From a virus, in the IMG/VR virus record IMGVR_UViG_3300036819_000087, positions 1-64,000 of that record: a DNA stretch of 64,000 bases; one strand, written 5' to 3'. Every line of letters begins with the position of its first letter. The stretch's first letter is position 1. A program made the translations under genes and the position numbers. The notes under the pieces are model-generated. The model was not told the origin of the DNA, ran no database searches, and worked only from the letters and a program-made list of their open reading frames with translations. Positions 12,796 to 37,057 of this stretch are shown piece after piece.

Positions 12796-12852
12796 ACAAC
12801 CTCTTTCCTGGGGTGGCTCTGCACACCCCCACGCGGGGGTGCGGGGTGGGGT

Positions 12853-15800
12853 CTACTGGTGGGTGGTGCCGTTGCCGGCGATGCCGAGCTGACCGGACAG
12901 CGCCTGCCAGGCGCGTTCCCGCATCGCGGGGTCCGGGGAGTTGCGCCACTCGTCGGCGAGGTTGCGCATGACCGCCATCTGGGACCGCTCCGCGGCCTTG
13001 GTGACGGTCGGGTTTTCGATCGACCCCACCGGGGCCATCGAAGCTGGGTTGGGGAACGCTGGCCCGCGGTAGGGGGCGACACCCTGGTCGGGTTCCTCGG
13101 CGAGGGCGTTGAGCATCTTGCCCTGCTTGCGCAGCAGGCGGGCCTGCCGGGCCAGGACCTCGCCCTGTTCGTCGAGGCGGGCCAGGAGCGGCACGGTCAC
13201 CTCGGCGAGGGCCTCCTTGATCAGGTCCGGGCTGTATGCGCCTGCCCCGGCCCCGGCCGCTTTGCCGGTCCAGGTCGCGTTCACGGGGACGCTGGCGGGG
13301 AAGCCGAGGGGGGGCAGGCCGAGGACCTCGCGGGCCTCGTTCACCGGCATGTCGCCCTTGATGACCTGTTCGGCGAGCCACTTGCGGGTGCCCTCCGCGT
13401 CGTAGGCCAGGCCGTCAGCGTCCTGGCCGCCGAACCCGTCACCGTCGCCGGCCGAGGCCGACTTGTGGCCTTCCGCCGCCGGGGCGGCCGCGGCCGCGTC
13501 GCCGCTGCCGGCCATGGGGCAGAGGCTGGGGAACGTCTGCGCGATGTGGTCGTGGATCGCGGCCAGCGCCTGGTGGACCTGGTCGCGGGCCGTGTTCCGG
13601 TAGAACAGGCGGCCGCTCTTGTTCGACGGGGAGTCCGCGGCGTGCCCGGCGGTGAGCGCCCCCCGGTCGAACTCGGCGGCGGTGATGTCGCTGGCGGGCA
13701 CCCGGGCCGTGTTCGGCTCCTTGTGCCCCGGCGATGGGGCAGCATGCCCGGCCGTGATGTACGGCCGGTTGAACCGGCCCGGGGACAGCTCCGACGGGGT
13801 GGGGGCGTGGCCGGGGCCCGGGTTGGCGTCCTGGAACGCCTTGTGGACCGCTTCACCCACCTCGGCGAGGACGATCGGGTCGGCGGCCTTCAGCATCACC
13901 GCGTCCTGCCACAGGACCTGCGACTTGGCGGCCTCGTCCAGCGGCGCGGAGGTGGCGGCGGTGAACGCGGCCCGCGCCCACTCGTCCGTGTCAACCACGT
14001 TGGCGAGGGTCGCGCCCGGGTGAGCCTTGGCCACATCGGCTGGGTGGTAGGCGGCGCAGGTCAGGTCGTGGAGGCGGCCGAGGTCACCGGGCACACCGAG
14101 GGTCTTGAACCGGGAGTGGGCGGCCTTCTCGTAGTCAGCGTCGGGGTCGGTGGGCAGCCGGGCGTCGTGTTCGAGGGCCTCGATCGCCTGCCCGTCCGGT
14201 TCCCGGTGCTTCGGCACCGGGGTGGTGTGCTCCCCGCGGACCCCATCACCAGGTGACGGCTTGCCCGCCTTGCTGGCCTTGGCGTCGCTGGCCTCGTCGT
14301 CCTCGTCGTCATCATCCTCGGGGGACTCGTCCCCGTCGTCCCCGTCATCCTCCCCATCATCGGGGTCATCGCCGGAGGCGGTGTCGTCCTCGGCCAGGTC
14401 ATCCCCGCCGTCGTCGTCGGTCTTGCCCTTGGCCAGGTCGGTGTCCTCGACCGCGCCGGCGTCAGCGTCGCCGGCCTTCCGGGCGGGGGGGAGTTTCGCG
14501 CCGCACCCCTCGCAGTGGCTGCCGTCGAAGTCGGAGTGGTGGTTCTTCCCGCACTCCTTGCACGCCCGCTTCCCGGCCTTCTCCACGTCCGCCTCGGCCG
14601 GGCTGCCGCCGATCTCCCCGGTGCCCTTGCAGCGGGGGCACTTCACGTGCCCGTCCCGGATCGTCTTGGTGCCGTGGCAGAGCGTGCATTCGCTCTTGGT
14701 GGTCAGGTCCTCGCTGGTGTCGACACGTGCCGCCTTTCCCGCCCCGTCCTGCCACGAGCCGGGCAGCCGGGCCGCGAACTGCGGCCCCTTCCGGTGGGCG
14801 ATCCTTGTGATGTTGGCGCGGAGCTTGTCCGGCCCGTAGTTGCTGTCGCCGGCCCGGCCGATCGAGGTGGCCGCGTCGTGCACGTCCTGCGGGGTTTTGA
14901 TCGGGTAGGACCGGTCCCGGCCCGCGAAATCGGAGTCCGGGAGGGCGTCGCGGTCGGTGCCGCCGCCCACGTTCGGGTCAAAATCGCGTTTCGCCGACTG
15001 GGCGCTGGTGGACTTGGCGCCGGGCCCGGACCGTTGCGCGTCGTCAAGCTTGGCGTGGGCGGCCGGGTCGGTTTCCTGCGGGTCGTCATCCATCGGCTTG
15101 GCCCGGGTCCGTGGCTTGCGCGGTTCCGGCTCGGCGGGGCTGGTGGCGTCGTCCTCGTCGACCTCATCCGCTGCCGCGGCCTTCCCCGCGGTCTCGCGGG
15201 TGATCGCCTGGGCGTGGGCGAGGTTCCCGGCCGTGGTCTGGTGCTGTTCCGGTTTCGCTGCCGGCTTGGCCCGGCCCGAACTGGTGTGGTGCCGGGCCGC
15301 CGCGGCCTGCTCCTCCTCAGCCTCCTCGTGCGCCTCGTGCGCCTCATGCGCCTCATGGGCAGTGTGGGCGTCGTGTTCGGCGTGCTGGTGCGCCAGGTGC
15401 GCGAGGTGCTCCTCGTGGACCTCGTGCATGACGTGGAGCTGGTGCGCGTCCGGCTTCTTCCCGGCCGCTTCCCGCTGTTCCCCCTGGTGGGCTTCATCCC
15501 ACGCCGTCCAGTCCTTGCCCACCATGCGGGCCTCGGCCTCACGGCGGGCGTCGAGGAGCTTGGCCAGGTCACCGGGGCTGAACGACACCGACACGTCCTC
15601 GGGCAACTCCACCGTCACCGTCTTGCCTCGTCCACGCGCCCACTCCTCACCATCGCCTTGACTGGCCACAACCCGTGCGGCGTCCCCGGCCCGGCCCCGC
15701 CGGGTCTGCCACACCCCGTAACCGCCGCCCGCGCCGTTGGAGAGACGCCCGACCACGTACCCGTTGACGTGGGAGTCGCCGGGCTGCATGTTCCGCGCCT

Positions 15801-16485
15801 CCCGGTCCCCGGCGCCGCCGCCGGGCCCGTCTTTGATCCACCCGTGGGAGTAGCCGTGCGGGCCTTCCTTCCCGGCGAACTCGGGGTCGTCGAGGTCTTC
15901 GCCGGCGGCGTGGTGTTCGGCGAGGGACTTGACCAGCAGGTCAGCGCCGCCGACCTTCCCGGTGAACTCGGCGTGCCCATCCGACCCGGCGGCTTTGGCC
16001 AGCTCGACGTAGCAGCCCCGGTTCGCTGGCCGGTCCACCAGGCTGATTTCGGCGAGTTCACCGCCCTTGATGATCCCGCCGCGGGCTTTGCCGGTCACGT
16101 CCCGGACGATCAGCGGCTTCGCGATCCCCACCGAGAAGGCCCGCAGGTGGCCTTTCTCGCACATCATCCGGGCGACCGGTTCATCGATCGCGGCCTTGAC
16201 CCAGTGGGCGCGGTCACCGTCCCGGTCGATCTCGACTTTCACACCCGACCCGGCCGGCATGAGGCTGGCGTTGTGCTGGACCCGGACGTTCGGGCCGGTC
16301 TGGAACCACGCCTCCATCGCCTTGGCGGACCAGTCCGGGTCGACGATCTGCTCATCAGAGTCGACCTCGGGGGTGGTGGCCTTCCCGTAGACGTACAGGG
16401 TGCCGGTGGCGGGGTCGGTCTCCATCTTCTCGATGGGGAACGAGTGATAGTAGAGGTCGGGGTCGGCGGTGACGGCAGTGGCCAC
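12853..16485 (-). CDS. HK97-type prohead protease fused to cargo modules and scaffold
   Basis: VRVQH, FSVG and EISLVDRPAN protease motifs in the first ~160 aa; then KEGPHGYSHGW tag, His-rich tract, DUF6582-like module, two Zn fingers, acidic tract, C-terminal coiled coil. Confidence 0.85.
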   Translation of the reverse strand: MATAVTADPDLYYHSFPIEKMETDPATGTLYVYGKATTPEVDSDEQIVDPDWSAKAMEAWFQTGPNVRVQHNASLMPAGSGVKVEIDRDGDRAHWVKAAIDEPVARMMCEKGHLRAFSVGIAKPLIVRDVTGKARGGIIKGGELAEISLVDRPANRGCYVELAKAAGSDGHAEFTGKVGGADLLVKSLAEHHAAGEDLDDPEFAGKEGPHGYSHGWIKDGPGGGAGDREARNMQPGDSHVNGYVVGRLSNGAGGGYGVWQTRRGRAGDAARVVASQGDGEEWARGRGKTVTVELPEDVSVSFSPGDLAKLLDARREAEARMVGKDWTAWDEAHQGEQREAAGKKPDAHQLHVMHEVHEEHLAHLAHQHAEHDAHTAHEAHEAHEAHEEAEEEQAAAARHHTSSGRAKPAAKPEQHQTTAGNLAHAQAITRETAGKAAAADEVDEDDATSPAEPEPRKPRTRAKPMDDDPQETDPAAHAKLDDAQRSGPGAKSTSAQSAKRDFDPNVGGGTDRDALPDSDFAGRDRSYPIKTPQDVHDAATSIGRAGDSNYGPDKLRANITRIAHRKGPQFAARLPGSWQDGAGKAARVDTSEDLTTKSECTLCHGTKTIRDGHVKCPRCKGTGEIGGSPAEADVEKAGKRACKECGKNHHSDFDGSHCEGCGAKLPPARKAGDADAGAVEDTDLAKGKTDDDGGDDLAEDDTASGDDPDDGEDDGDDGDESPEDDDDEDDEASDAKASKAGKPSPGDGVRGEHTTPVPKHREPDGQAIEALEHDARLPTDPDADYEKAAHSRFKTLGVPGDLGRLHDLTCAAYHPADVAKAHPGATLANVVDTDEWARAAFTAATSAPLDEAAKSQVLWQDAVMLKAADPIVLAEVGEAVHKAFQDANPGPGHAPTPSELSPGRFNRPYITAGHAAPSPGHKEPNTARVPASDITAAEFDRGALTAGHAADSPSNKSGRLFYRNTARDQVHQALAAIHDHIAQTFPSLCPMAGSGDAAAAAPAAEGHKSASAGDGDGFGGQDADGLAYDAEGTRKWLAEQVIKGDMPVNEAREVLGLPPLGFPASVPVNATWTGKAAGAGAGAYSPDLIKEALAEVTVPLLARLDEQGEVLARQARLLRKQGKMLNALAEEPDQGVAPYRGPAFPNPASMAPVGSIENPTVTKAAERSQMAVMRNLADEWRNSPDPAMRERAWQALSGQLGIAGNGTTHQ

Positions 16486-16562
16486 ACAGCTCCTACGGGG
16501 ATGGGCGTGTCGGATCGGTAAACAGGGGGCCGGTGGGCCGGTGGGCTGGCAGGATGACCGCC

Positions 16563-16763
16563 ATGTTGCTGAGACTGTTCAGGCAGTGGCGGGCGGGGCG
16601 GGATGTGTGCGCCTGCGGGTGTCCCCGGCTCGCTCACCGGCACCACAACCACGGTTCGAATTGCGGCCGGCATCCGTGGTGCACGCGGTTCCACCAGCCC
16701 GGGGCGTGGCGGTGGGTGATCGCCCGTGACGGCCTGCCGATCCGGGCGCCCAAACGGCGGTGA
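16563..16763 (+). CDS. Small Cys/His-rich protein
   Basis: CACGC...H.H...C...C pattern. Confidence 0.45.
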   Translation: MLLRLFRQWRAGRDVCACGCPRLAHRHHNHGSNCGRHPWCTRFHQPGAWRWVIARDGLPIRAPKRR

Positions 16764-17608: not shown

Positions 17609-17609
17609 G

Positions 17610-19528: not shown

Positions 19529-19531
19529 GAT

Positions 19532-21760: not shown

Positions 21761-21815
21761 ACGTCACCCCCTGGCCCTCCAGGCATACGCGACGGACCAG
21801 GAGCAGGGTGTTCGA

Positions 21816-22502: not shown

Positions 22503-22509
22503 ACAGCCC

Positions 22510-22770
22510 CTATCTGGCTATTTGCCGGTTGGTTCGCTTGATCCGCCGGTCGGCCAGGCGGGAGCCGGCCAGCCGCCACCACGCCGCCTTGACGGGGTTG
22601 CTGTATGTCGCGGCCACCACCCCGAGATCGTGGACGACCGCCGGTTCCGTGTTCCCGCACCCGCCGCACGGCCGGCCCGGGTCACGGCGGTACCCGCACC
22701 GGTCGCAGCCGCGGATGACCACCGCGGCGACCTCGGCCTGCCCGAACGGGACCGCACCGGGCCCGTTCAC
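22510..22770 (-). CDS. Small CxxC protein
   Basis: Two CxxC pairs; GTGA coupling. Confidence 0.5.
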   Translation of the reverse strand: MNGPGAVPFGQAEVAAVVIRGCDRCGYRRDPGRPCGGCGNTEPAVVHDLGVVAATYSNPVKAAWWRLAGSRLADRRIKRTNRQIAR

Positions 22771-23903
22771 CGCCGCCGGCCCAGTTCCTCGTCCAGGCCC
22801 TGCCGGTCCATCGCCGCCTGGATCAGCCGCAGAGACGACGCCGGGACACGGCCGCCACTGCGGGCCTGCCGCTGAAATTCGAGGTTCGCGGCAGCGAGCT
22901 GGCGGGGGGTGAGCGCGGCGACGAACTGGTCCCGCAGGCTCGGTTTCAACGCCCGCAACGTACTGGTCACCGCCCCGCCGTCCTTAGCCTGGGCGGCCAT
23001 CCGAGCGATCGTCTCCGACTGGTCCGGTTTGGGTGCCCGGGACTGGCGGGCGGATGGTTTCCCTGCGAGCCGGTCCCGGATCATCTGGTGGGTGTCGGAC
23101 ACTTCCCCGTGGCGGCCGAGCGTGTCGGCTACATGGGTGAGGTACGAGTCCGCGGCCCGGGCCTCGGCGTCGGACAAGCCGGCCACGGCTTGCCGGCGGC
23201 CGCGTACCCCCCCGGTCGCGCCCCTGGACTCGATGAAATTGACGGCAGACTTGCCCGGGTCGGCGCCCTGCCGGCCCATCGCGGCACCGCCGCGGGCGTG
23301 GAAGTCAGCGACCCGCTCGGCCGCTGGCCGGGTGTCCTCACCGAGGCGGCGTGGTGGCTTGGCGGCGGCGTCGCTGGCCATCACGCCGAGGAGGTCCACC
23401 CCGGCGGCGGCGTGCTGCGCTTGTGATTCGCGGCGGCTTTGCCGGCTGCCTGGCACGTCGAACAGGGACAACGGCTCGGACTCGTCGAAATCTTGCCGCC
23501 GCATCGCCGTCCAGTCCCGGCCACCGGTCTGCCCGGCCGGGGCTGCGGCCTCGGCCGACAGCAGGTCGCCTTGCTGGCTACCCCGGCCCGGTTTGACGGA
23601 AGGGGCCGGGTTGTCGGTGGCCAGGCCGCGCGGCACGAAGTGGCCCGCACCGTTGCCGCCCCGCCCCGCGCCGGGACGGTGCTCGAAGCTGTGCTCGGCC
23701 CCGGAGTCGAACCGGACCCGCACCTTCCGGCCGCCGACGCCGGTGACGCGCCCTCGGCCGAGTTCGGGGTGCTCGATCTGGCCGCCCCCTCCGGGGATGC
23801 CGACGAAAATCCACCCGTGGATGTAGCCGTGGGGGCCGACCTTGAGGAGGTCGGCGAGCTGGGCGGCGGTCATCCGGGTCGGGGTGTCACTGGTCACCGT
23901 CAC
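22767..23903 (-). CDS. [11 protein letters not shown]-tagged head-cluster protein (class B adaptor plus unknown domain)
   Basis: Tag at 23811-23843 followed by HP.LG.G.V...VRFD.G SH3-like segment; GGAGG RBS. Confidence 0.7.
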
Positions 23904-25318
23904 GGGGCACCTCCGCTGTCGTTTTTGCCGTGGTCCATGCGGGCGTGCTGGGCGGGCCAGTAGCCGAGGGCCTCGTGGTGCAAGTTGTTGCAGTAGCCTT
24001 TTGCCTGGTCGGGGGTCATGTGGGCGTGTTCGGTGACCAGGGCGACACAGCGCATGAAGTCCCCGTCGGTGCCCCACTTGATGGCGTCGGCGAAGGCGTA
24101 GTGGGTGGGGCCGCCGTGCCCGTGCCGGGTCCAGTACTCGCGGAGCGTCCGCGCGGCGCCTTTCTCGACCGTGTCGCCGTCGAGGGCGTCGAGGACGGGG
24201 CCGAGCGACGCGGCCAGCTCGGGCCGGACCGCTGGGTTGTCGCGGAGGAGGCCGGGCGCCCACCAGGCCAGCGCCTCGGTCTGGTCACCGTCGGGGTCGT
24301 CCGGGTTGATCACCTCGTCGCGGCCCTCATGGATCGGCACGTCCGCCTCGGCTGGGACGGTCAGCACGAACCCCTCGTAGATGCCGTGCCGCCACCGGCC
24401 GGTGATCTGGCCGCGGGGTGGCTGGCAGCCGGTCTCCTCGGCCCACTCCCGGGCCGCGCCCATGATCGGGGTTTCCCCTGCCTCGATGTGGCCGCCGGGG
24501 AACTCCCACATGCCCGCAGCGGGGTCATCCGGGTCGTTCGCGCGTTGCAGCATGAGGACACGGCCGGTGTCCTCGGCCCGGACGGCCAGGCCAGCGACCT
24601 CGGCCGTCTTGGTTTTGCGCACGGCCGCGCCGCAATGCGGGCAGCCCCGGTCGTGGACGGCCTGGTCGCGGAACACCTCGTCGCAGAACGGCGCGGTCAG
24701 CTCGTTGCCTTCGAGGGTGCCGCTGGCGTCGCACCGGTAGCACTCGTGGCCGGTCGGGTGCTCGCCTGCGCCTCCGCAGCATCCGCAGCCGACCCGGCTG
24801 GTTTTCCCGGACGGGCCGGGTGGGCGGCCGCGGGGCCCGTGGCCGCCGGGGCTGGACGTGCCGGCCTGCTGGCTGCCGTGGCCACCTTGCGGCCACCAGC
24901 CGTCCATGTACGTGTTCGGCCAGTCGGTGCCCGGCCGGGTGGGTACGCCTCGACCGGATGGGGCGGCCGCGTCGTCCTCGTCGTCGGGGACCGTGGCCAC
25001 ACGCGGGACGGGCTGGTCACCGTCCCACCGTGGATAGTCCCCGCCCGCCGACGGGCCCACGGAACCGCCTTGGGCGCTAGCCGGGTCGAGGGGGCCGCCG
25101 GGGCCGTGCTGGGCGCCGTTCGCGTCATGCGGCCGGTGCACTGCGGCACCGCCGCCCGCGCTGTAGCCGCCGGGGTCATCCTGCCGCTGGTCGGTCCAGG
25201 TTTCCTGCCCGTTCAGGTCAACCGTGCGGCCCTTGCTGGTGTCGTCCAGGCCGAGGTCGATGTGGCCGACCAGGTGTGGCTGGAAGTCGGCCATCCGCTC
25301 GGCCATGCCCCCGGTCAC
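23900..25318 (-). CDS. Multidomain NUDIX hydrolase, head-cluster protein
   Basis: Complete Nudix box [23 protein letters not shown]; Zn finger upstream; C-terminal LREYW...[12 protein letters not shown]...KGYC module. Confidence 0.8.
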
Positions 25319-27108
25319 GCGGCCACCGACTTCGGCAGGGCCACGAAATAGGCGTCGGTGACATCCACGCGGCCAGGGTGGGGGCCTGACTTCAGGAACG
25401 CGAGCGGCTGGCCAGCGTCGAGGATGACCTCGTTTTCGGGGAACTCGGCGGCCGTGCCCGTCCACACCACCGGGGTTCCGGCTGGGGTCATGATGTGCAT
25501 GACCGTGGTCCCGGACCGGTTGGAGGCGAACCGGCCACCCGGTGACAGGGTGGTCGAGGAGAACCCGGGGTCGGCGATCACGTCGCCGCGGGCCAGCCCA
25601 TCGAACGTCATCGGGCCTTCGATCTGGCGGAGGAGGGTGAGGTCCTCGGGTAGCGGCTGCATCGCCGACGACAGCGCGGCGGCGACCGGGCCACCGTCGC
25701 CGTCGGCTCGCAGGCCGCCGTTGACCGCGGTGTACTCCGGGCCGGTGTATGCCTGGATGGCCTTGGCCTGCCCGGGGGTGTAGTGGAACGCGGGGTCGAG
25801 GTGCTCCTGGCGGTACTGGGTGGCCTCGTCGAACCGGAGTTCGCGGGGATGCAGCGTCCCGGCGTGGTCGCGGGCCCACTGGCCCGCGTGCTCGCTGATC
25901 TCCTCGCCCGCACCGGACCGTACCCAGTGGCCGTGGGAGCCGCGCAGCTCGTGCTCCCACGCCGCCTTGATCACGGCCTCGGCGAGCGCGGCCTGGTGCT
26001 GCGCGAGCACGTCCTCGTAGCCGTTGAGGTCCTCGGCCTTGACCACGGGTTTCGGCCAGGTGCCGGTGATGTCGAGGCCGTGGACCACGGTGGGCATCGG
26101 CGCGCACCTACAGTTGGGATGACCTGGTGGCCCCAGATCCCCTGACGGGAACAGGGCCAGGAGCGGGATGCCACCCTCGGCCTCGTTCCTGCGGCACACC
26201 GGGCAGACCCGCTCATCGGGGGCGACCGCCCACTCTTTCCCCTCGACCCCGTGCTCGATGTACTGGTCGAAACTCGCTGCGGTGACGGCCCGGGCGATCT
26301 CGGTCCGGGCGATCATCGGGGCCCGCTGAGGCACCCGCAAGATGCTCTCGAGTCTCCCCGCGAGGTCTTCCCACGAGTCGCCGTTGGCGACGGCGTCGGC
26401 GATCTCGTCGGCCAGATCTTGCATCCTGGTCTGGGCGATCGACCGGATCATGGAGATGCCGTGGGAGGCCAGCAGTGCCTGGAGGCGGGGGGCGGTCGCG
26501 ATGCCCTGGGCGGCTTCGAGGTCACCGGGTGTCCAGGTCCCCCAGTCGGGGATCTCCTGGCGGGCGATCCCGCGGGCCGAGTGATGCCCGAGGTACCACG
26601 CCTCGGTCCAGAGCCGCCGCAGCGTGGCACCGACGTGGGCGCCGATCCCGTCGGAGATCAGGTCAACGAGGCCCTGCCTGGTTGCGGCCAGCCGGCCCGC
26701 CCACCAGTCCCGCAGCAGACCCGTCGCGTTACTGGTCGCCGCTTTGAACGCTTGGGTGATCTGGTCGGTGTAGACGCTGGCCAGCGTCAGGTCATAGACC
26801 CAGCCAGGCCAGGCAGCGGGCGTCGGAGGGGCCGGCGGGACTGGTTGACCAGCCGGGCCCGTCGGCGGGGTCGGTGGGACTTTTGGGTCAGCATCGCCAC
26901 CCGCGGCGGCGGCCTTGCTGGTGTGGCCGGACGGTTCGGTCCACACGTACCCGTTGCTGTACCCGTCGAGGTAGGCGGCGGCACCACGCCGGGCGGCCAC
27001 GTCGGCCATCGACTGGAGGCCGGGGGTGGAGGCGACCAGGCCGTTGCCGGTGTCGGTGATCGTCCCGGCCGGGCCCCGCGCGGTGTGCACCGTCCAGACC
27101 GCGGTCAC
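25315..27108 (-). CDS. MuF (phage Mu gpF-like) minor head protein fused to an ADP-ribosyltransferase
   Basis: [17 protein letters not shown] and PPGHPNCRC MuF motifs; C-terminal R...FSSTT...ENE (R-S-E, VIP2-like). Confidence 0.88.
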
Positions 27109-28490
27109 GCCGCTGCCTCGTTCTCAGCGTCGGCGACCCGGTCGCGGAGCCGGGTGAGTGCACCCATCGTCTGGTCGAACATTTCCTCGGGGAACAGGTC
27201 AGTGGCGTACTCGGTGTCATCATCGTCGTTGAGGGCGTTGAGTTCGCGGGCCGCCTGGTCAAACGCGGGCTTGATCGCTTCTACCCGGGCGGTGATCGCG
27301 TCGAGGCCGGCGGAACTGATCGGCGTGTTCCCGTCGTCGAGTTCTTCGAGGAGGTGGTCGGTGAATGGGCTGGTGTTGCCCAGCCAGCCGGTCCCGTCGT
27401 CGGCGAGCGCCTCCCACGTGCCGTTGTTGTCGATCGGGACGGGGGTGCCGTCGCTGGCGATCAGCACGTTCCCGGAGTGCCGATCCTGGTGGCCGGTGAT
27501 CGCGTCGAATACACCGATCCGGGCCCCGGCCGGGGTGCTCATCGCCTTGGTCAGAGACCCCGTGGGTGCTTCGGCGCCTGGTGTCGCGTCCCCGACGAAC
27601 GGCATGTAAACCTCGCGGGGGCTGGTCCTGACAATGTGCGGGGCGCCAGCACCGACCGCGTCGGCGACACGGGAGGCCAGCAGATCACGGATGGCGTTCG
27701 CCTTGGAAACCTTCTCCGTGATCGGGTTGTGGGTGCCGGACGGGTATTCCTTGTGCACCCACTTGCTGCCGTCGGGGAACGTCTCGATGGTGGTGTACGC
27801 CTGCATGCCCTCGGTGGACGGCGTTTTCACCGTGGGTTCACCGGACCGGAACGCGGCGGCGAGCCGTTTGGCGGTCTCCTCGTGCCCCTCCCCCGCGGGC
27901 TTCTCGGACCGCCACGTGCCCGCTACCGGGCCGGGTTCCGGTTTACGGGCGGCTGGGGTGTGCATGGGCCCGGGTGCGGCTTGGTCTGCGGGCCGGGCCC
28001 CCGCCTGGTTGGCTCGCCTGTTGTACCGGCGGGACACCGACCTCAACGCGGCACCCCGGCTGTCGTGGCTGGTCTGGTCGCCGTTGGCGTGGTGGGCGAC
28101 GAACAGGCCGTTCTCGTCCCGGGCCACGTGCCCGACCGCCCAGCCGGTCTTGCGGTGGACGATCCCGCCATCTTTGGCGACGGCCAGGTCGTCGGCCTTG
28201 ATGTGGCCAGGCTTCTCCCCACAGGGCGGCCGCACACAGATGTACCCGTGGATGTAACCCTCGGGGCCGACTTTGGTCAGGTCCGGGACGAACGCCTTGG
28301 CCAGCTCGCCGCGGGCTGCGGCGAACCCCTGGTGCCATGCGGTCGCGGCCTGCCGGACCAGCAACGGGCCCGCATGCGGGTCTGGTGCCGGATGGTCGAG
28401 GACGCCGCCGGCGTGGCGGGTGTGGGCGGCGCGGCGGCCGGCCATGTGCGCGGCGGCGATCACGTCACCGCGGTCAACTACCGGGGCCAC
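27105..28490 (-). CDS. Tagged head-cluster protein with HipA/PI3-PI4-kinase-like domain
   Basis: KVGPEGYIHGY tag; WVHK, FDAITGHQDRHSGNVLI and PIDN kinase motifs. Confidence 0.78.
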   Translation of the reverse strand: MAPVVDRGDVIAAAHMAGRRAAHTRHAGGVLDHPAPDPHAGPLLVRQAATAWHQGFAAARGELAKAFVPDLTKVGPEGYIHGYICVRPPCGEKPGHIKADDLAVAKDGGIVHRKTGWAVGHVARDENGLFVAHHANGDQTSHDSRGAALRSVSRRYNRRANQAGARPADQAAPGPMHTPAARKPEPGPVAGTWRSEKPAGEGHEETAKRLAAAFRSGEPTVKTPSTEGMQAYTTIETFPDGSKWVHKEYPSGTHNPITEKVSKANAIRDLLASRVADAVGAGAPHIVRTSPREVYMPFVGDATPGAEAPTGSLTKAMSTPAGARIGVFDAITGHQDRHSGNVLIASDGTPVPIDNNGTWEALADDGTGWLGNTSPFTDHLLEELDDGNTPISSAGLDAITARVEAIKPAFDQAARELNALNDDDDTEYATDLFPEEMFDQTMGALTRLRDRVADAENEAAA

Positions 28491-28518
28491 GTGATCAACC
28501 TGTGATCAGCTACCGAGG

Positions 28519-29433
28519 TCATGCGTAGAAGTCACCCCCGCGCGGTCCGCCCCCGGCGGCCTGGCCGAGGAGCATCGACTGGAAATCGGCGCTGGTGGGG
28601 CGCCCGTTCTGGTCCCACCATTCGCCCAGCTCGGACGAGGCGTATTTGCGGGCCCGGTTCTCGGGTCCGGTGAACAGGGACCACGGGTCGATGTCGGCTT
28701 TCTGGCCTTCCCGGTTGAGCATGACCCCGTTCGTGGCGGCCTCGGCGTCGAGGACCCGGCGTTGCACATCGGTTTTGAAGGCGTCGCGGGCGAGTTCCTC
28801 GAAGTTGCGGCCCTTGAATCCCTGGGTGCGCAACTGCTGGATGGACGCTTGCCGGGTCATCGTGTCGGTGTCGGTGCCGTAGGAGTGCGCCCAGGCGTCC
28901 TCGGGGTTTTCCCCCTCGTCCACCAGCCCCTGATAGACCCGGTTGCGGTCCCCTTCCGATGTGGGGGTTTGGGCGTAGAGGCCAGCGACGCGGGCTTTGC
29001 GTTCGTCGCGGTCGCGGCGGTCGAGTTCGGCGACCGCGTGCTCGAACCGCTTCCCATCCCCGGACGCGAGTTCGCGGGCGAGTTCGTCGTCGGTCATCCG
29101 CTCGAAGTGGCCGGGGCCCTGGCCGGGCCGGACCGGGAACGAGGCGGCGTGGCCGTCGTCGAACGCGACCGACACGTGCGGGTGGCCGTGCTCACCTGCG
29201 GGCTCGGATTCGGTGACCTGCCCGTGCCCGTGGTGCGGGTGGAACACGTGGTCGCCGGCCGCGGGGATGCCCACGAAGATCCAGCCGTGGATGTAGCCGT
29301 GCGGACCCACCTTGACCAGGCCGGCGGCGGTGGCGGTCTTGACTGCGGGGCTGGGCAGCATCGCGTCGAGCAGCACGTCGTCGCAGCGGAAATCGTCGGG
29401 GAACCATGAAGGGAGCCCGGCCTTAGTGGGCAC
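28519..29433 (-). CDS. [11 protein letters not shown]-tagged head-cluster protein (class B adaptor plus unknown helical domain)
   Basis: Tag at 29281-29313; C-terminal AEAATNGVMLN...ARKYASSEL.EWW..NGRPT module. Confidence 0.72.
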   Translation of the reverse strand: MPTKAGLPSWFPDDFRCDDVLLDAMLPSPAVKTATAAGLVKVGPHGYIHGWIFVGIPAAGDHVFHPHHGHGQVTESEPAGEHGHPHVSVAFDDGHAASFPVRPGQGPGHFERMTDDELARELASGDGKRFEHAVAELDRRDRDERKARVAGLYAQTPTSEGDRNRVYQGLVDEGENPEDAWAHSYGTDTDTMTRQASIQQLRTQGFKGRNFEELARDAFKTDVQRRVLDAEAATNGVMLNREGQKADIDPWSLFTGPENRARKYASSELGEWWDQNGRPTSADFQSMLLGQAAGGGPRGGDFYA

Positions 29434-32400
29434 TGAAATCGCCTTGCGGACCGAGCTGGACGTAGGTCATGCCGTTTTTCTGCGACACAGACTGGACCGG
29501 GAACCGGCCACCGGTGACGACCTCTTGAAGTTTGGCGCGGTATTCGAGTTCGCTGCCGCCGCCTTCCTCGATGGGGCTGAGGTCCAGGCCCTTCGCGCCG
29601 GGAGCTGCCACGATGACAACACCCCCCTCGCCGCCGAACGCTTTCGCTGTGTCCTCTGACTTGCCCCACGACGCGATCGGGAGGTCAACGGTTCCGCCGG
29701 CCTTGAACATGCGGCGGATCTCGGCTGACGGGAGGGTCAGGCCCCGGTACAGCGGCGTGCGCTGGGCGGTGGCGTCGTCCTCGATGAGTTTCATGAAATC
29801 GTGGGCGTCGCGTGCACCGGGTGTCATGGTGGCCGGTGGTTTCCCGGTCTTCAGGAGGCGGTGCAATTCGTTTGTGAATTGGGCGTCACGGAGAGTGCCC
29901 TGGGTCCGGTTTGAGTACCGGAACGCTTTCGTCCACATGGTGGTCAGGCGGCGTTTCTCAGCCAGGTTGACGCCGCCGGCTGGTGTGGGCGGGGCGGCCG
30001 GGTTCTCATGGGAGTGGGAGACCCCCACGCCACCGAGTGTCCTGCTTATGCGTTCGCTGGGTGGTTTATGCATCTCCTCATGCCGCGTGAGAAGATCCTT
30101 TTTCGGCGGGTTTTTGCTGCCTATGCGGCGGCCGATAGCTGGGCCGCCGCCGTGGTAGTTCTCCAGGTGGTGGATGAGTTCGTCTTTACTCATCCGGTTC
30201 GCGGGGGTCGAGCTAGTCGCAGGTTCGTGCTCGTGCTCGTGCTCGTGCTGTGGTGCTGGTTTCGCTGTGGCTGGGCGGCTGGTACTGCCCGAGTTGTGGT
30301 GGCGGGCGATCGCCTTGACCGCATCGGGGCGGGCGCCGTGGACGGTGCGGCTGCCATCGGAGTGGTTTGCGGTCCACCCGCCGGCTTCACTGCGGGCGAC
30401 ATGCCCGACCGCCCACCCGGACGGCTTGTGCACGACTCCGCCGTCCGAACGGACCGTCAGATCCGCGGCGCGGAGACGGGCTGGCTTCTCCCCGCACGGC
30501 GGCCGGACACACACCCAGCCGTGGACGTACCCCTCGGGGCCGACCTTGCCGACGAACGAGCCGGCGGCCATGCTGGTTGCCTCGTCGACGGTGAAGCCCT
30601 TATCCAGGTCTTCCGCGATCTCGTCGAGGATCTCGCCGGACAGGTGCCGCGGCTCCCACGTGCCGACCGCGCGGCCCTTGCGGAGGTGCCGGGCAAGCGC
30701 GTCGAGTTCAGCCAGCGCCGCCTTCGAGGCGGGGTGGGGCTGGGGGTGGCCCAGCAGGCCCTGGACCAGGGTGCCCGGGATGAAGTCGGGGTCGGCGGGG
30801 AACTTCCCGGCCGCGACCTGCGCGGCCGCGGCCGACACGATCCCCGTCGCCACCGTGTGCGCGGCGTCGTGCTTGAACACGTCGGGGTCGTCGCCGAGCA
30901 TGGCCGCCTCGATCCGCTCGGCCTCGGCCGACTTGTCCGCGCCCGAGGCGGAACGCTGGCCGCCGCCACGGCCGCTCCCGGTCCCGTGTGCGGCGACGGC
31001 GGCGTCGTGGCCGGGTGACTGCCCCCGGGCGGGCGCCTGGGCGGCCGTGGCCCGTCCTGGGCCGGTCTGCGGCTTGGCCTGGCCGGCGGGCAGCGCGGCG
31101 CGCTGCGGCGCGCCCGCCACCTGCTGCGGGGCACCGGGCTGGCCAGGTGGCGCGCCGGCGGGGTGCGCGGCGTCCGGCTGCGCGAATCCGGCCTGCGGCT
31201 GCCCCTGGGTGTTCATCTGCCCCAGCGGCAGGAACCCCGTCGCGCTGGCCCAGCCCGGGTCGCTGGTCTCGGGCAACCCCCACGGCTGTTTGCCGATCTC
31301 GCCGCGGCCCTCGTCGATCGACAGGAGCCCGGCACCGATCTGGGTGACCAGCGTGGTCGTCTTGGTGGCCTCATCCTCTTCCTCTTCGAGCCCTTCGAAG
31401 AGGAACCGCATGTCGTCCTGGTGACAGACCTCTTGCAGGACAAAGTCGCAGATCGCGCCGATATATTCGAGGGTCGGCTTGGTCGCTTTCCGTTCCTGGC
31501 TGCCCTGGCTCATTTTGGCCATTTGGTTGGACGCGCCCGGCGACATTGTGGTGGAAACCTTGGGGGCGATACCGAGTTCCATCGGGGACACGTCGAACGA
31601 CATGCACACCCAGTTCATGACAACCTCGTCGAACTGGTCCGCCAAAGCGGCCGGCCGCTGCGGTTCCGTCTTGGACCCGGGCGGGAGAACGATGATCTTG
31701 TGGTGAAATGCGGGGTCGCCGGCGATCGCGTTCAGGGCGTCCTGGAGCTCGCGGATCTGGTTCGGGGTCATCGTCGCGTCGCCCGGCGAAATGTACACGG
31801 CGGGGACCGTGCCCTCGCGGAAAAAGTCCAGCGCATAGCCCTGCTTCTGCAACCCGGCCATGATCGGCAGGAGGGCCCGCTCCACGGGCGGGAACCCGTA
31901 CGGGGTCCAGCGGCGCTTCTCCACCGGCAGGTACAGGAGCTGGTCGCCGCGGAACTTTTTCCACGCCGACTCGCCCACCCCGGACTGCTCAATGTCCCGG
32001 CCAGTGATCACCGACGTGAGGTCGGTGCGGGGCACCCCGTACAGGTACTGCTGGTAGCCGGGCGCCGGGGGGCGGGGGGTGGCGCCGTTCAGGTCATACA
32101 GGGGCCGGATCGTTTCCCCATCAATCAGGCTGAACGAGTCCAGGTCCGACCCCAGCAGTCCCTTACCCAAACCCCGGGCCCGCTTCGGCTGCAAGAAAAT
32201 GGACAGCGCGTCGAAAACGAGCATCTGCTCCATCGCGTCGCCGATCCAGCTCGACCACGTGAAATAATCGGGATCCGGGCGGTGAAAGAACCGCATGGCC
32301 TTCCCGCGGCGTTCCCCGAATTCGCGCATGGCTTTTTTGTCGCCGCGCATCGCTTTGGCCGCGTCGGGGGTCGGGACAATATCCCACCCGATGCCCTTGA

Positions 32401-32812
32401 TCTCGTTTTTACGCAACTGGATGCAGGACCGGGCCACCGAGTACAGGTCGGCGATCGACCGCAACGTCTGGAACGTGGCCAGTTTGATGCCCTCGGTGCC
32501 AGGCTGACCGGTCGGCAGGTTCCAGCCGACCTCGTACTGCTCCCGCCTGGGCACGGCACGCCCGTCGTCCTCGGGGGTGTCGACCGGGACGGGGAGGATC
32601 GGGGAGAACGGGCCGAACGCGCCCGCGGTGAAATCCTGCGGCGGACGAGGCAGGAACGGGCCATAGGCGGAGGCGTAGCCGTTGCTGGTGTCCTGGTCCC
32701 GGACCGCTGGGGAGACCTGCCCGTACCACTGGCCGCCCTGCGGCGGCGGGGTGGGCTGCGCGGTACCGGGGACGGCCTTGGTCGCGGCCAGGATGGCTCG
32801 GGGAGAAGCCAC
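29423..32812 (-). CDS. Portal protein with C-terminal tagged ADP-ribosyltransferase-like extension
   Basis: Portal motifs (IDGETIRP, YGFPPVE, FFREGTVP, FDVSPMELG, LSIDEGR); tag at 30515-30547; LYRG...ASW...QEV ART-like end; GGAGGT RBS before GTG 32812. Confidence 0.88.
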   Translation of the reverse strand: MASPRAILAATKAVPGTAQPTPPPQGGQWYGQVSPAVRDQDTSNGYASAYGPFLPRPPQDFTAGAFGPFSPILPVPVDTPEDDGRAVPRREQYEVGWNLPTGQPGTEGIKLATFQTLRSIADLYSVARSCIQLRKNEIKGIGWDIVPTPDAAKAMRGDKKAMREFGERRGKAMRFFHRPDPDYFTWSSWIGDAMEQMLVFDALSIFLQPKRARGLGKGLLGSDLDSFSLIDGETIRPLYDLNGATPRPPAPGYQQYLYGVPRTDLTSVITGRDIEQSGVGESAWKKFRGDQLLYLPVEKRRWTPYGFPPVERALLPIMAGLQKQGYALDFFREGTVPAVYISPGDATMTPNQIRELQDALNAIAGDPAFHHKIIVLPPGSKTEPQRPAALADQFDEVVMNWVCMSFDVSPMELGIAPKVSTTMSPGASNQMAKMSQGSQERKATKPTLEYIGAICDFVLQEVCHQDDMRFLFEGLEEEEDEATKTTTLVTQIGAGLLSIDEGRGEIGKQPWGLPETSDPGWASATGFLPLGQMNTQGQPQAGFAQPDAAHPAGAPPGQPGAPQQVAGAPQRAALPAGQAKPQTGPGRATAAQAPARGQSPGHDAAVAAHGTGSGRGGGQRSASGADKSAEAERIEAAMLGDDPDVFKHDAAHTVATGIVSAAAAQVAAGKFPADPDFIPGTLVQGLLGHPQPHPASKAALAELDALARHLRKGRAVGTWEPRHLSGEILDEIAEDLDKGFTVDEATSMAAGSFVGKVGPEGYVHGWVCVRPPCGEKPARLRAADLTVRSDGGVVHKPSGWAVGHVARSEAGGWTANHSDGSRTVHGARPDAVKAIARHHNSGSTSRPATAKPAPQHEHEHEHEPATSSTPANRMSKDELIHHLENYHGGGPAIGRRIGSKNPPKKDLLTRHEEMHKPPSERISRTLGGVGVSHSHENPAAPPTPAGGVNLAEKRRLTTMWTKAFRYSNRTQGTLRDAQFTNELHRLLKTGKPPATMTPGARDAHDFMKLIEDDATAQRTPLYRGLTLPSAEIRRMFKAGGTVDLPIASWGKSEDTAKAFGGEGGVVIVAAPGAKGLDLSPIEEGGGSELEYRAKLQEVVTGGRFPVQSVSQKNGMTYVQLGPQGDFSAH

Positions 32813-33360: not shown

Positions 33361-33401
33361 CCCCGAACGCGGCCACCACCCGCGCACGCAACTCGTCCTG
33401 G

Positions 33402-33934: not shown

Positions 33935-33941
33935 GCTGGTC

Positions 33942-34307: not shown

Positions 34308-34318
34308 GGCCGATGATC

Positions 34319-34771: not shown

Positions 34772-34783
34772 CAGCCCGGATCG

Positions 34784-36976: not shown

Positions 36977-36988
36977 CCGGGTCTCCTC

Positions 36989-37030: not shown

Positions 37031-37057
37031 AAAGCAAGCGACAACCGAGGAGCCAGA

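What the first reader, a model, noticed from the sequence alone, without database searches (positions are those of the whole stretch)
22767..32812. Six-gene polymorphic effector array beginning at the portal (2 ARTs, kinase, NUDIX, 2 unknown domains) with no immunity genes
Seen: six abutting or overlapping ORFs encode portal-ART, unknown, kinase, MuF-ART, NUDIX and unknown, with no small intervening genes. Known: MuF toxin loci typically have one toxin followed by an immunity gene. Inference: this is a host-takeover or anti-defence toolkit of protein-modifying enzymes delivered at infection rather than a competition toxin. The enzymes may be inactive until proteolytic release. The NUDIX could trim ADP-ribose or destroy nucleotide signals.
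Basis: partly seen in the sequence, partly recalled or inferred. Interest (0 to 1): 0.85.

Follow-up and report, generated by a model that had tools for sequence, protein, structure and literature searches.

The report
Phage head-cargo effector gene array
Directly after its portal gene, an uncultured 107-kb high-GC phage carries six tightly coupled genes (plus one small one) for two ADP-ribosyltransferases, an atypical kinase, a NUDIX hydrolase and two non-enzymatic modules. This is a split form of the known "polyvalent" cargo that phages are thought to pack in the head and inject. Its shared peptide tag and its adaptor domains appear to be undescribed.

Summary
Six minus-strand genes (22767-32812) abut or overlap. 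They encode portal+ART, tag+Tudor-like+MuF-C-terminal domain, tag+adaptor+PI4KII/HipA-like kinase, MuF+ART, NUDIX, and tag+Tudor-like+orphan region.

- **Second ART:** the portal-borne domain is now shown by fold (Foldseek hits to Tre1, Vis, ExoS and C3) and by a conserved R-S-E triad.
- **Active sites:** all four enzymes keep their catalytic residues.
- **Variability:** cassette content differs strongly among seven phages with related portals. In several of these the same modules are fused into portal-MuF-effector polyproteins of 1200-1740 aa.
- **Correction:** an 86-aa zinc-ribbon ORF (22510-22770) is GTGA-coupled to the last gene, so "no small genes" is not strictly true. I found no ADP-ribosylhydrolase or Macro gene.

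The reading as head-packaged, injected effectors is the established polyvalent-protein hypothesis (Iyer et al. 2017, 2022). It is supported here by context only.

The less ordinary parts are:
- a 14-19-residue tag (K-V-G-P-x-G-Y-I-H-G-W-I) with five copies in this genome and 60 unique copies in relatives, predicted flexible, absent from 50,697 isolated phage records, and resembling a conserved site in the capsid protein N-terminus;
- adaptors resembling the UvrD/PcrA/CarD RNA-polymerase-binding Tudor domain.

This scan has already noted comparable tag-delimited cargo in other genomes. Verdict: a new variant of a known kind.

The parts
29423..32812 (-). Gene A: portal protein with a long C-terminal extension ending in an ADP-ribosyltransferase (1129 aa)
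   Evidence: ORF and start with a GGGGGAGG RBS. Pfam Phage_portal and PHROG portal hits.
31301..32437 (-). Portal domain (A aa 126-504)
   Evidence: Pfam PF04860, 44.3 bits against a cut-off of 39.1. 63-82% identical to the portals of L002-L008.
30563..30724 (-). Conserved helical module (A aa 697-750). In relatives it lies directly upstream of the MuF domain.
   Evidence: tblastn piece A_link 154-214 sits next to D_MuF in L002-L004.
30506..30547 (-). Tag copy 1 (A aa 756-769, KVGPEGYVHGWVCV)
   Evidence: Six-frame motif scan.
30278..30490 (-). A/C-type adaptor domain (A aa 775-845), a paralogue of the one in gene C
   Evidence: Alignment A8. The AF2 model of the C copy has pLDDT above 90, with five strands plus a helix.
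29426..29992 (-). ART domain (A aa about 941-1129). R1023, S1048 and E1097 are present; the first Glu of ExE is Leu1095.
   Evidence: 45 homologues, always C-terminal. Invariant R and S and near-invariant E. AF2 model with pLDDT 84. Foldseek hits to Tre1 6dre, Vis 4xzk, ExoS and C3.
28519..29433 (-). Gene B: leader + tag copy 2 (29272-29313) + Tudor-like adaptor (29134-29262) + MuF-C-terminal-type domain (28522-29097)
   Evidence: PHROG 1752 and 12049 match their C-terminal parts. tblastn hits in 511 actinophage records. LastHope gp10. Tudor profile hit.
27105..28490 (-). Gene C: leader + tag copy 3 (28233-28274) + A/C-type adaptor (27996-28223) + atypical kinase (27108-27893). Catalytic residues are K247, D336, N341 and D354.
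25315..27108 (-). Gene D: MuF domain (26074-26811) + linker with header-like motifs ([17 protein letters not shown]) + ART (25318-25782). ART residues are R494, S518-T-T and E558-N-E560.
   Evidence: Pfam Phage_Mu_F 53.7 bits and ADPrib_exo_Tox 27.0 bits, both above cut-off. ExoT hit in PDB..
23900..25318 (-). Gene E: Gly/Pro-rich conserved N-region (24794-25318) + Cys clusters (24629-24787) + NUDIX (24245-24595; Nudix box at aa 276-298) + phrog_6439 C-terminal domain (23930-24163)
   Evidence: Pfam NUDIX 66.2 bits. PHROG hits. PDB MutT/RppH-type hits. The N-region follows MuF directly in L002-L004.
22767..23903 (-). Gene F: short leader + tag copy 4 (23802-23843) + Tudor-like adaptor (23679-23792) + orphan C-terminal region (22770-23618)
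   Evidence: No homologues of the C-terminal part. No Atlas hit.
22510..22770 (-). Seventh small ORF: an 86-aa protein with CxxC...CxxC, GTGA-coupled to F
   Evidence: GC by codon position 0.71/0.60/0.90. An 80%-identical 85-aa homologue, P0063. Not present in the fetched relatives.
12853..16578 (-). Prohead protease (S78-type, 15874-16461) fused to a scaffold-like region. Tag copy 5 (15829-15870) lies in the linker.
   Evidence: 6 of 13 orthologues hit Peptidase_S78, best 1.9e-5. Alignment. Synteny.
10954..12852 (-). Probable major capsid protein. Its N-terminal region holds a conserved tag-like site, L-V-K-G-A-G-Y (12649-12669).
   Evidence: It follows the protease-scaffold gene in all relatives. 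tblastn hits a 'major head protein' of phage MMB025. Motif conservation. The motif occurs nowhere else in the genome apart from the tags.

Best explanation
The array is a split, recombining form of a phage 'polyvalent protein'. It is a set of cargo modules that are built into the prohead together with portal, MuF and the protease-scaffold protein, and that enter the host cell with the DNA.

**Shown**
- The six genes are real, and so are their domains: two R-S-E-type ARTs, a PI4KII/HipA/CtkA-like kinase, a NUDIX hydrolase, a MuF C-terminal domain and an orphan region.
- All catalytic motifs are intact.
- In phages with 63-82% identical portals, the same modules are fused directly to portal and MuF or are exchanged for others (2H phosphoesterase, other ARTs).
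- Modules not attached to MuF are opened by one invariant linear tag, [AP][DE][LIV][VT]-K-V-G-P-x-G-Y-I-H-G-W-I-x-V.
- The tag is predicted to be flexible. It is followed by a small folded adaptor.

**Inferred**
1. The modules are packaged because they ride on, or derive from, head-entering carriers.
2. The tag is read by the S78 prohead protease as a 'cut here' signal, and possibly also as a loading signal. It frees cargo from portal, MuF or scaffold. It resembles the conserved h-V-K-G-A-G-Y/F site near the capsid protein N-terminus and the conserved G-K-V-x-G boundary of the protease domain.
3. After ejection the enzymes modify host proteins or nucleotides early in infection, for takeover or counter-defence.
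4. The UvrD/PcrA/CarD-like Tudor adaptors of B and F may dock on host RNA polymerase.

**Origin.** The window's arrangement looks like two cassette insertions into an ancestral portal-MuF-NUDIX fusion: about 3.7 kb (tag-ART, B, C) and about 0.8 kb (ART).
For: - **Genes, junctions, coding signal:**
- **Domain calls:** 5, 6, 27, 31, 87, 89, 90.
- **Portal ART:**
- **Kinase:**
- **Polymorphism and fusion to carriers in relatives:**
- **Pfam tally of 81 tag-delimited modules:** ADPrib_exo_Tox 11, portal 4, MuF 4, 2H 3+2, NUDIX 2, Arr-ms 2, Zeta toxin 1, PI3_PI4_kinase 1, S78 1.
- **Tag counts:** five copies in the 107-kb genome and none elsewhere in six frames. 60 unique copies in 13 further IMG/VR loci, all co-oriented, up to four per ORF.
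- **Tag with different cargo:** invariant across proteins with kinase, ART or HExxH C-termini.
- **Protein-level constraint:** synonymous sites differ between the copies.
- **Tag structure:** tag pLDDT below 50, adaptor pLDDT above 90.
- **Protease:** orthologues hit Peptidase_S78.
- **Tag-like sites:** one in the capsid protein N-terminus, conserved also in tag-less relatives, and the only other match to the loose pattern in the genome.
- **Tudor-like adaptors:** profile against PDB gives UvrD CTD 7egt at E 4e-4, plus six more UvrD/PcrA entries. Per-member Pfam: CarD_TRCF_RID 5 of 14, PcrA_UvrD_tudor 3 of 14.
- **No reversal enzymes:** no ADP-ribosylhydrolase or Macro gene in the genome.
- **Literature for the general model:** PMC5512222, PMC9503650.
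Against: - There is no experimental or proteomic evidence that any of these proteins is in a virion, is cleaved or is injected. The phage is uncultured.
- B, C and F have no carrier domain, so their packaging rests on the tag alone.
- Close relatives L002 and L005-L007 have no tag at all, although their proteases are 53-80% identical. The tag is therefore dispensable for head maturation.
- The similarity to the capsid-protein site is short, needs a one- to two-residue gap, and was noticed post hoc.
- The Tudor assignment rests on about 30 aligned residues and on sub-threshold Pfam scores.
- The portal-borne ART lacks the first Glu/Gln of the ExE motif (L1095) and does not reach any Pfam ART model on its own.
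- An 86-aa ORF follows the array and could be a partner or immunity protein.
- The genome encodes an integrase, so a temperate lifestyle, as for classical MuF toxins, is possible.
Confidence: 0.6

Rival explanations
1. Classical MuF-type polymorphic competition toxins. The enzymes would be released from lysing or lysogenic cells to harm competitors or act on a third party, as for Bxa. The producer would be protected by immunity proteins.
For: - D has the MuF-toxin architecture.
- The genome has an integrase.
- A small 86-aa ORF ends the array.
- Jamet et al. found small ORFs after 89% of MuF toxin genes.
- Bxa is a tested MuF-family ART with two immunity proteins.
Against: - Neither ART gene is followed by a small ORF. 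A is followed by B (304 aa) and D by E (472 aa).
- In relatives the ART modules are embedded inside ORFs of 868-1740 aa.
- No ARH or Macro gene was found.
- The small ORF follows the non-enzymatic gene F and is absent from the fetched relatives.
- The tag is almost absent from bacterial genomes, with one locus in 185,579 species. This argues against a prophage-borne competition system.
Confidence: 0.1
2. The enzymes act only inside the producing cell late in infection, for example by modifying host or phage proteins during assembly. The fusion to head genes would reflect co-expression, not packaging and injection.
For: - B, C, E and F carry no recognised head-anchoring domain.
- Packaging has not been measured.
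- Late-operon location alone would give the same gene order.
Against: - The same modules are covalently fused to portal, MuF and the protease-scaffold protein in relatives. Those proteins are physically built into proheads.
- The portal-ART fusion in the window itself places the ART at the portal.
Confidence: 0.15
3. The tag is a docking (cargo-loading) peptide that binds the capsid interior or the scaffold, like encapsulin targeting peptides. It would not be a protease site, and the modules would stay uncut.
For: - Eleven to fourteen residues are near-invariant across phages whose portal, protease and capsid proteins are only 35-80% identical. That is more than prohead protease sites usually need.
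- The tag is a flexible linear motif.
- Carrier-less proteins B, C and F would need a loading signal.
Against: - The portal-ART fusion needs release if the ART is to leave the head.
- Tags sit at every module boundary in polyproteins with up to four copies.
- The tag resembles conserved Lys-Gly sites in the capsid protein and at the end of the protease domain.
- The two roles are not exclusive.
Confidence: 0.3
4. The six genes are an assembly or frameshift artefact of one giant polyvalent ORF.
For: Relatives encode the same modules as single ORFs of 1200-1740 aa.
Against: - Every stop lies at a natural C-terminus. The ART family of A always ends at ...FSAH in 30 or more homologues.
- The C-terminal domains of B and E also end their ORFs in L004.
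- Each gene has its own start codon.
- Three junctions are GTGA overlaps.
Confidence: 0.03

Closest known systems
Phage-type polyvalent proteins and head-protein-fused effectors (Iyer, Burroughs, Anand, de Souza, Aravind 2017, PMC5512222; Iyer et al. 2022, PMC9503650)
   Same: - ART, kinase, Nudix and 2H domains are attached to portal, MuF and the assemblin-like prohead peptidase.
- The genes lie in the head-morphogenesis block.
- Domain shuffling is extensive.
- The proposed role is packaging and injection.
   Different: - Here the modules are spread over six or seven translationally coupled genes instead of one polypeptide.
- The kinase is of the PI4KII/HipA/CtkA type, not the truncated Ser/Thr kinase clade described there.
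- Modules are opened by a conserved linear tag and by small adaptor domains. Neither turned up in my term searches of those two papers or in a full-text search for the core motif.
- The lineage is high-GC and probably infects Actinomycetota.
MuF polymorphic toxins of temperate phages (Jamet et al. 2017, PMC5576092), with the tested member Bxa and its partners Bsi and BAH (PMC11699363)
   Same: - Gene D is a MuF domain with a C-terminal R-S-ExE ART, downstream of the portal gene.
- The C-termini are polymorphic.
   Different: - No small ORF follows either ART gene.
- There is no ARH-type immunity gene.
- Two genes lie between portal and MuF.
- Additional cargo lacks a MuF domain.
T4 head-internal cargo: Alt ART and internal proteins IPI-III with the capsid targeting sequence removed by the gp21 prohead protease (from established knowledge; Alt is cited in PMC5512222)
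   Same: - Unrelated cargo proteins share a short peptide.
- The cargo includes an ART.
- The proposed logic is the same: the head protease that matures the capsid protein also trims the cargo.
   Different: - The tag is unrelated in sequence and is longer.
- It occurs internally and repeatedly in polyproteins as well as near N-termini.
- The protease is S78 (HK97-type).
- No cleavage has been shown.
Demarcation motifs of polymorphic toxins (VENN in CdiA, PxxxxDPxGL in Rhs; from established knowledge, reviewed in PMC3482391)
   Same: A short invariant motif marks the boundary where variable C-terminal modules are exchanged.
   Different: - The sequence is different.
- The setting is a virion rather than a secretion system.
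- In the window the constraint acts on the protein, not on the DNA.
RNA-polymerase-interacting Tudor-like domains of UvrD/PcrA (C-terminal domain), Mfd/TRCF and CarD (RID)
   Same: The adaptors of B and F carry the G-D/E-x-V-x-H-P-x-h-G-x-G-x-V signature. Their profile hits UvrD/PcrA C-terminal domains (E 4e-4), and single members hit CarD_TRCF_RID and PcrA_UvrD_tudor.
   Different: - All Pfam scores are below the gathering thresholds.
- Only about 30 residues align.
- RNA polymerase binding is untested.
- The domain sits behind a cargo tag in phage head-module proteins.

Membership tests
R-S-E ADP-ribosyltransferases (C3/ExoS/Tre1-like): portal C-terminal domain of A | ART fold | tested here: met
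   AF2 model with pLDDT 84 (above 90 across the domain). The 30 or more top Foldseek PDB hits are all ARTs, E 1e-6 to 1e-4, prob 1.0.
R-S-E ADP-ribosyltransferases: portal C-terminal domain of A | Catalytic Arg, Ser(-x-Ser/Thr) and Glu | tested here: met
   R1023 and S1048 are invariant and E1097 is at least 90% conserved in 34 family members.
R-S-E ADP-ribosyltransferases: portal C-terminal domain of A | E/Q-x-E motif (first Glu or Gln, two residues before the catalytic Glu) | tested here: not met
   The window and its three closest homologues have L/M-Q-E (L1095). Most other family members have E-x-E.
Pfam ADPrib_exo_Tox (PF03496): A C-terminal domain | Score above the gathering cut-off | tested here: not met
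   No Pfam hit even at E 10. 6 of 34 family members hit PF03496, but I did not check where in those proteins the hit lies.
Pfam ADPrib_exo_Tox (PF03496): D | Score above the cut-off, and the R / S-T-T / E-x-E motifs | tested here: met
   27.0 bits against a cut-off of 23.4. 25.4 bits in the genome scan. R494, S518-T519-T520 and E558-N-E560 read from the sequence.
MuF (PF04233) / MuF polymorphic toxin sensu Jamet 2017: D | MuF domain with a C-terminal toxin domain, downstream of the portal gene | tested here: met
   53.7 bits against a cut-off of 29.6. The gene lies in the portal operon, although two genes intervene.
MuF polymorphic toxin sensu Jamet 2017: D | [quoted passage not shown] | tested here: not met
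   The next gene is E (472 aa), joined by a GTGA overlap. The only small ORF (86 aa) follows F.
Protein-kinase-like superfamily, PI3/PI4-kinase / HipA / CtkA branch: C | Kinase fold | tested here: met
Protein-kinase-like superfamily, PI3/PI4-kinase branch: C | Catalytic loop D-x-H-x-x-N, metal-binding Asp, ATP-binding Lys | tested here: met
   D336-R-H-S-G-N341, I-D354-N-N-G and W-V-H-K247. These are conserved in P0002 and P0006.
Pfam PI3_PI4_kinase (PF00454): C | Score above the gathering cut-off | tested here: not met
   17.7-18.9 bits against a cut-off of 27.1. Homologue P0006 carries a precomputed PF00454 hit.
NUDIX hydrolases (PF00293): E | Pfam score and the Nudix box G-x5-E-x7-R-E-U-x-E-E-x-G-U | tested here: met
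   66.2 bits against a cut-off of 21.1. The box at aa 276-298 is complete.
ADP-ribose-specific NUDIX (ADPRase / NudE type): E | Closest relatives are ADPr pyrophosphatases | tested here: inconclusive
   The best PDB hits are MutT/RppH-type (3r03 at 1.8e-9, 3ees). ADPRase 1v8i scores 6e-5.
Polyvalent proteins (Iyer et al. 2017) | Two or more disparate effector domains in one polypeptide, encoded with the packaging genes | tested here: inconclusive
   In the window each polypeptide carries one recognisable effector. Relatives carry several, for example L004 with ART+2H and L003 with portal-MuF-NUDIX. The gene context requirement is met.
T4-type capsid targeting / processing signal | The peptide is needed for head incorporation and is cleaved by the prohead protease | not testable with these tools
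   Only indirect hints are available: the tag is flexible, and it resembles sites in the capsid protein and at the protease boundary.
PcrA/UvrD Tudor and CarD_TRCF_RID domains: adaptors of B and F | Sequence membership | tested here: inconclusive
   Profile against PDB: UvrD CTD at E 4e-4, with six further UvrD/PcrA entries. Single-sequence Pfam E-values are 0.003-0.006, below the cut-offs.
PcrA/UvrD Tudor and CarD_TRCF_RID domains: adaptors of B and F | Binding to the RNA polymerase beta subunit | not testable with these tools
Peptidase_S78 (HK97-type prohead protease): N-terminus of the 12853-16578 protein | Pfam score; catalytic His and Ser | tested here: inconclusive
   The window protein itself scores only E 0.2. 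6 of 13 orthologues (48-80% identical) hit PF04586, best 1.9e-5. H63 and S110 are invariant in alignment A6.

The most novel reading that the evidence does not exclude
The K-V-G-P-x-G-Y-I-H-G-W tag is a portable address and processing label that copies the capsid protein's own maturation site. Any module placed behind it would then be loaded into the prohead and cut free by the S78 protease. The Tudor-like adaptors would then steer the injected cargo to the host RNA polymerase. Together this would be a programmable virion cargo system, distinct from MuF anchoring.
Probability: 0.25. Interest if true: 0.8.

Novelty: new variant of a known kind. Interest (0 to 1): 0.55.

Why it matters
Head-packaged effectors are the least-studied step of phage takeover, and almost nothing is known about them outside T4, P1 and N4. 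This locus offers a compact, testable case.
- Four intact enzymes sit in one operon, with natural fused and split variants in relatives.
- A short invariant tag could serve as a search handle for injected cargo in metagenomes.
- If the tag is a loading or cleavage signal, it could also be used to load foreign proteins into capsids.
- If the Tudor-like adaptors bind RNA polymerase, they would link virion cargo directly to transcription takeover in Actinomycetota, a phylum whose phages are widely used in teaching and therapy programmes.

Tried and rejected
**Searches against isolated phages**
- Megablast of the 10-kb array found no match.
- tblastn of both tag-plus-adaptor types found no match at E up to 1.

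**Sequence searches that found nothing useful**
- PDB sequence searches gave no hit for the A C-terminus, the C kinase domain, the F C-terminal region, the protease profile, the capsid protein and the A/C adaptor profile (only a chance-level MecR1 hit).
- The B C-terminal domain gave chance-level hits only.
- The Atlas search on the F C-terminal region gave no usable hit.
- The Atlas search on the A C-terminus gave ART clusters at 0.85-0.87, which I used only as a lead.

**Other attempts**
- Complex prediction with the protease domain (A6) and the tag peptide (A5) scored 0.01, so there is no verdict either way.
- The VIA wide search on the whole C model reported the kinase domain only, so the fold class of the A/C adaptor remains untested.
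The genomic context of that homologue is unknown.
- Single-linkage clustering of the modules collapsed into one cluster because the modules are multi-domain.

**Ideas considered and dropped**
- The tag as a DNA-level recombination site: synonymous positions differ among the copies.
- The tag as a 2A-like or intein-like self-processing element: no matching motif. This rests on my own knowledge.


Full report
**What the sequence is.** The window is the first 64 kb of a 107,282-bp IMG/VR virus record, estimated 96% complete, with 70% G+C. No isolated phage is close. Megablast of the array finds nothing. The portal reaches only 25-27% identity to phages of Brevundimonas, Thermoanaerobacterium, Alicyclobacillus and Arthrobacter. 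The large terminase gene lies at 39309-40931. The genome encodes a tyrosine integrase.

**Observation.** Six minus-strand genes fill 22767-32812:
- A: 29423-32812
- B: 28519-29433
- C: 27105-28490
- D: 25315-27108
- E: 23900-25318
- F: 22767-23903

Their GC3 is 0.85-0.90. A and B overlap by 11 nt. B and C are 28 nt apart. C/D, D/E and E/F share GTGA overlaps.

The stops are genuine. The C-terminal ART family of A always ends its protein at ...FSAH. The C-terminal domains of B and E also end their ORFs in relative L004.

One correction is needed. An 86-aa ORF with two CxxC pairs (22510-22770) has GC3 0.90, is GTGA-coupled to F, and has an 80%-identical homologue. A small gene therefore closes the array.

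**Domains.**

*Gene A.*
- It holds a portal domain (Pfam 44.3 bits; PHROG 2662 at 2.9e-39).
- A Pro/Gln/Ala linker follows, then a helical module that in relatives precedes MuF.
- Next come the tag, an 80-aa adaptor, a His/Glu-rich stretch and a C-terminal domain.
- The C-terminal domain has no Pfam hit. It has 45 homologues among 1.84 billion representatives, always at the C-terminus of proteins of 125-1667 aa.
- The family keeps an invariant Arg (LYRG, R1023) and Ser (ASW, S1048) and a near-invariant Glu (E1097, EVVTGGRF).
- AlphaFold2 gives pLDDT 84. Foldseek returns only ADP-ribosyltransferases at the top: Tre1 6dre/6drh, Vis, ExoS/T, C3 and HopU1 (E 1e-6 to 1e-4).
- The first Glu of the usual ExE is Leu in the window and in its three nearest relatives. 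The acceptor specificity may therefore differ.

*Gene D.*
- It carries Phage_Mu_F (53.7 bits) and ADPrib_exo_Tox (27.0 bits) with R494, S518-T-T and E558-N-E560.

*Gene C.*
- K247, D336-x-H-x-x-N341 and D354 are present.

*Gene E.*
- It has a complete Nudix box and is nearest to MutT/RppH-type enzymes.
- Its C-terminal 80 aa form phrog_6439.

*Gene B.*
- Its C-terminal 190 aa match the C-terminal domain of 'MuF-like minor capsid protein / capsid maturation protease' in 511 actinophage records, for example LastHope gp10.
- It is therefore a conserved head-protein domain rather than an evident enzyme.

*Gene F.*
- Its C-terminal 283 aa have no relatives in 5.8 billion proteins of comparable length, and the language-model search gave no usable hit.

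So "2 ARTs, kinase, NUDIX, 2 unknown" is correct, with one 'unknown' now placed.

**Relatives and polymorphism.** Seven IMG/VR loci have portals 63-82% identical. In all of them the region after the portal is followed directly by a protease-scaffold gene and a probable capsid gene. The cargo between differs:
- L002: portal-MuF-2H phosphoesterase in one 1398-aa ORF.
- L003: portal-MuF-NUDIX-tag-adaptor (1740 aa), plus a separate ART ORF.
- L004: portal-MuF-tag-Tudor-(B-type C-domain), followed by an ART-2H protein.
- L005-L007: portal with an extension only.
- L008: a 1635-aa 2H...ART protein.

The window's order is explained by two insertions into a portal-MuF-NUDIX ancestor. Tag-ART plus B plus C plus the first 100 aa of D went in between the MuF-leading helical module (now at the end of A's linker) and the rest of MuF (now in D). 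An ART cassette went in between MuF and the conserved N-region of E. This is an inference. The window also has about 6 kb of extra genes (17009-22517) between the array and the protease gene.

**The tag.** K-V-G-P-[EH]-G-Y-[IV]-H-G-[WY] occurs in A (aa 756), B (41), C (73) and F (21). K-E-G-P-H-G-Y-S-H-G-W occurs in the linker of the protease-scaffold protein. Nowhere else in six frames of the 107 kb does it occur.
- A database search with C found eight proteins sharing an invariant 18-mer but carrying kinase, ART or HExxH C-termini.
- A pattern scan of IMG/VR gave 13 more loci. They hold 77 co-oriented copies, 60 of them unique, with up to four per ORF in ORFs of up to 2162 aa.
- The logo is [AP][DE][LIV][VT]-K-V-G-P-x-G-Y-I-H-G-W-I-x-V. 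Synonymous sites differ among the window's copies, so the constraint is on the peptide.
- Pfam tallies of the tag-delimited modules list ARTs (11), 2H, NUDIX, Arr-type ART, Zeta toxin, PI3/4-kinase and others.
- The tag is absent from 50,697 isolated phage records. It occurs in one of 185,579 species genomes, a Streptosporangiaceae MAG.
- The core motif occurs in no relevant paper of the library.
- In the AF2 model of C the tag has pLDDT below 50, while the following adaptor has pLDDT above 90. It therefore behaves as a linear motif read by a partner.
- Four relatives (L002, L005-L007) have no tag at all.

**What reads the tag.** The protease domain is S78-type by orthology (6 of 13 orthologues hit PF04586). 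Two hints point to the protease.
- The protease domain ends in a conserved E-F-[TV]-G-K-[VML]-x-G.
- The probable capsid protein has, about 50 residues from its start, a conserved [LMA]-V-K-G-A-G-[YF]. This is also present in tag-less relatives. It is the only match to a loose tag-like pattern in the whole genome apart from the tags themselves.

I therefore favour the idea that the tag imitates a maturation cleavage site. This would free the ART from the portal and the modules from each other. The similarity is short and was found post hoc. A docking role is not excluded, and the two roles could coexist. A complex prediction gave no verdict (reported only under Tried and rejected).

**Adaptors.**
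- The adaptors of B and F carry G-D-x-V-x-H-P-x-h-G-x-G-x-V. A profile of 14 such adaptors hits the C-terminal Tudor domains of UvrD/PcrA (7egt at E 4e-4, plus 4c2t, 9dqs, 7egs, 6yi2, 9dci and 5dma).
- Single members hit CarD_TRCF_RID (5 of 14), PcrA_UvrD_tudor (3 of 14) and RapA Tudor (1), all below threshold.
- From established knowledge, these families are RNA-polymerase-binding modules. This suggests, but does not show, that some cargo is aimed at host RNA polymerase.
- The A/C-type adaptor (five strands plus a helix) has no sequence match.

**Immunity.** Neither ART gene is followed by a small ORF. No ADP-ribosylhydrolase or Macro domain is encoded. Fused modules in relatives leave no space for antidotes. 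The only candidate partner is the 86-aa ORF after F, and its context elsewhere could not be fetched.

**Comparison with what is known.**
- Portal-, MuF- and protease-fused ART, Nudix, 2H and kinase domains, and their proposed packaging and injection, are described by Iyer et al. (2017, 2022).
- MuF toxins with immunity genes are described by Jamet et al. and tested for Bxa.
The evidence here fits it but does not prove it.
- The split gene organisation, the tag, the adaptors and the resemblance to the capsid-protein site are not in that literature as far as I could search.
- This scan has already recorded comparable 'header-tagged cargo cassettes' in other genomes, including K-GDxxGHxFHGNQ[YW] and NPxHDxxGRF forms. 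I did not test whether they are homologous to this tag. Gene D carries two motifs of that other style ([17 protein letters not shown]) between MuF and its ART.

**Verdict.** This is a new variant of a known kind, of moderate interest.

Noticed in passing
window 17009-22517 (minus strand): About 6 kb of genes lie between the cargo array and the protease gene, and they are absent at this position in all relatives. They are a 214-aa Gly/Ser/Thr-rich protein, a 743-aa protein with many Ala/Thr/Arg repeats (RRAGRAL.A.V-like) and a weak 'minor tail protein' PHROG hit, a 111-aa protein, a 587-aa protein with a GDSL-lipase domain, and a 203-aa protein.
   Followed up: partly
window 41707-43386 (minus strand): A 559-aa ParB-like N-terminal domain is fused to a DNA methyltransferase, just upstream of the terminase gene.
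   Followed up: no
window 33400-39300 (minus strand): About 6 kb of small genes without family hits separate the large terminase gene (39309-40931) from the portal gene. This is unusual for a packaging module.
   Followed up: no
window 30150-30180 and about 15300-15400: His/Glu dipeptide repeats (HEHEHEHE in the portal extension; HEAHEAHEAHE in the scaffold region) occur in two head-module proteins.
   Followed up: no
L010/L011 about 14300-14500 and L017 about 17290-17600: The protease-scaffold linker of these relatives holds a degenerate tag (GTPDTF[TR]H[DG]WL[HK]IG). It also holds a copy of the small helical module that precedes the ART in the window's portal protein (A aa 871-916). The protease linker is therefore another insertion site for cargo modules.
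   Followed up: partly
window 23930-24163; L004 15793-16032; L008 8058-8273: The phrog_6439 domain (about 80 aa, with a conserved W..G.DF.RC....H...P..A.GYC motif) ends NUDIX- or 2H-bearing cargo proteins in three phages. Its function is unknown.
   Followed up: no
L022 (JBOHCP010000278.1, Streptosporangiaceae MAG): This is the only tag-bearing locus among 185,579 species genomes. It hints at the host group and shows that these phages are rarely seen as prophages.
   Followed up: no
relatives L009-L021: One tag-delimited module in the relatives contains an intein splicing domain. Others carry Zeta-toxin/AAA_33 P-loop kinase and Arr-type (rifampin ART-like) domains.
   Followed up: no
window 8576-9367 (minus strand): A second, stand-alone ParB (ParB_N + HTH_ParB) gene fits the plasmid-like lifestyle noted by another report on this genome.
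   Followed up: no
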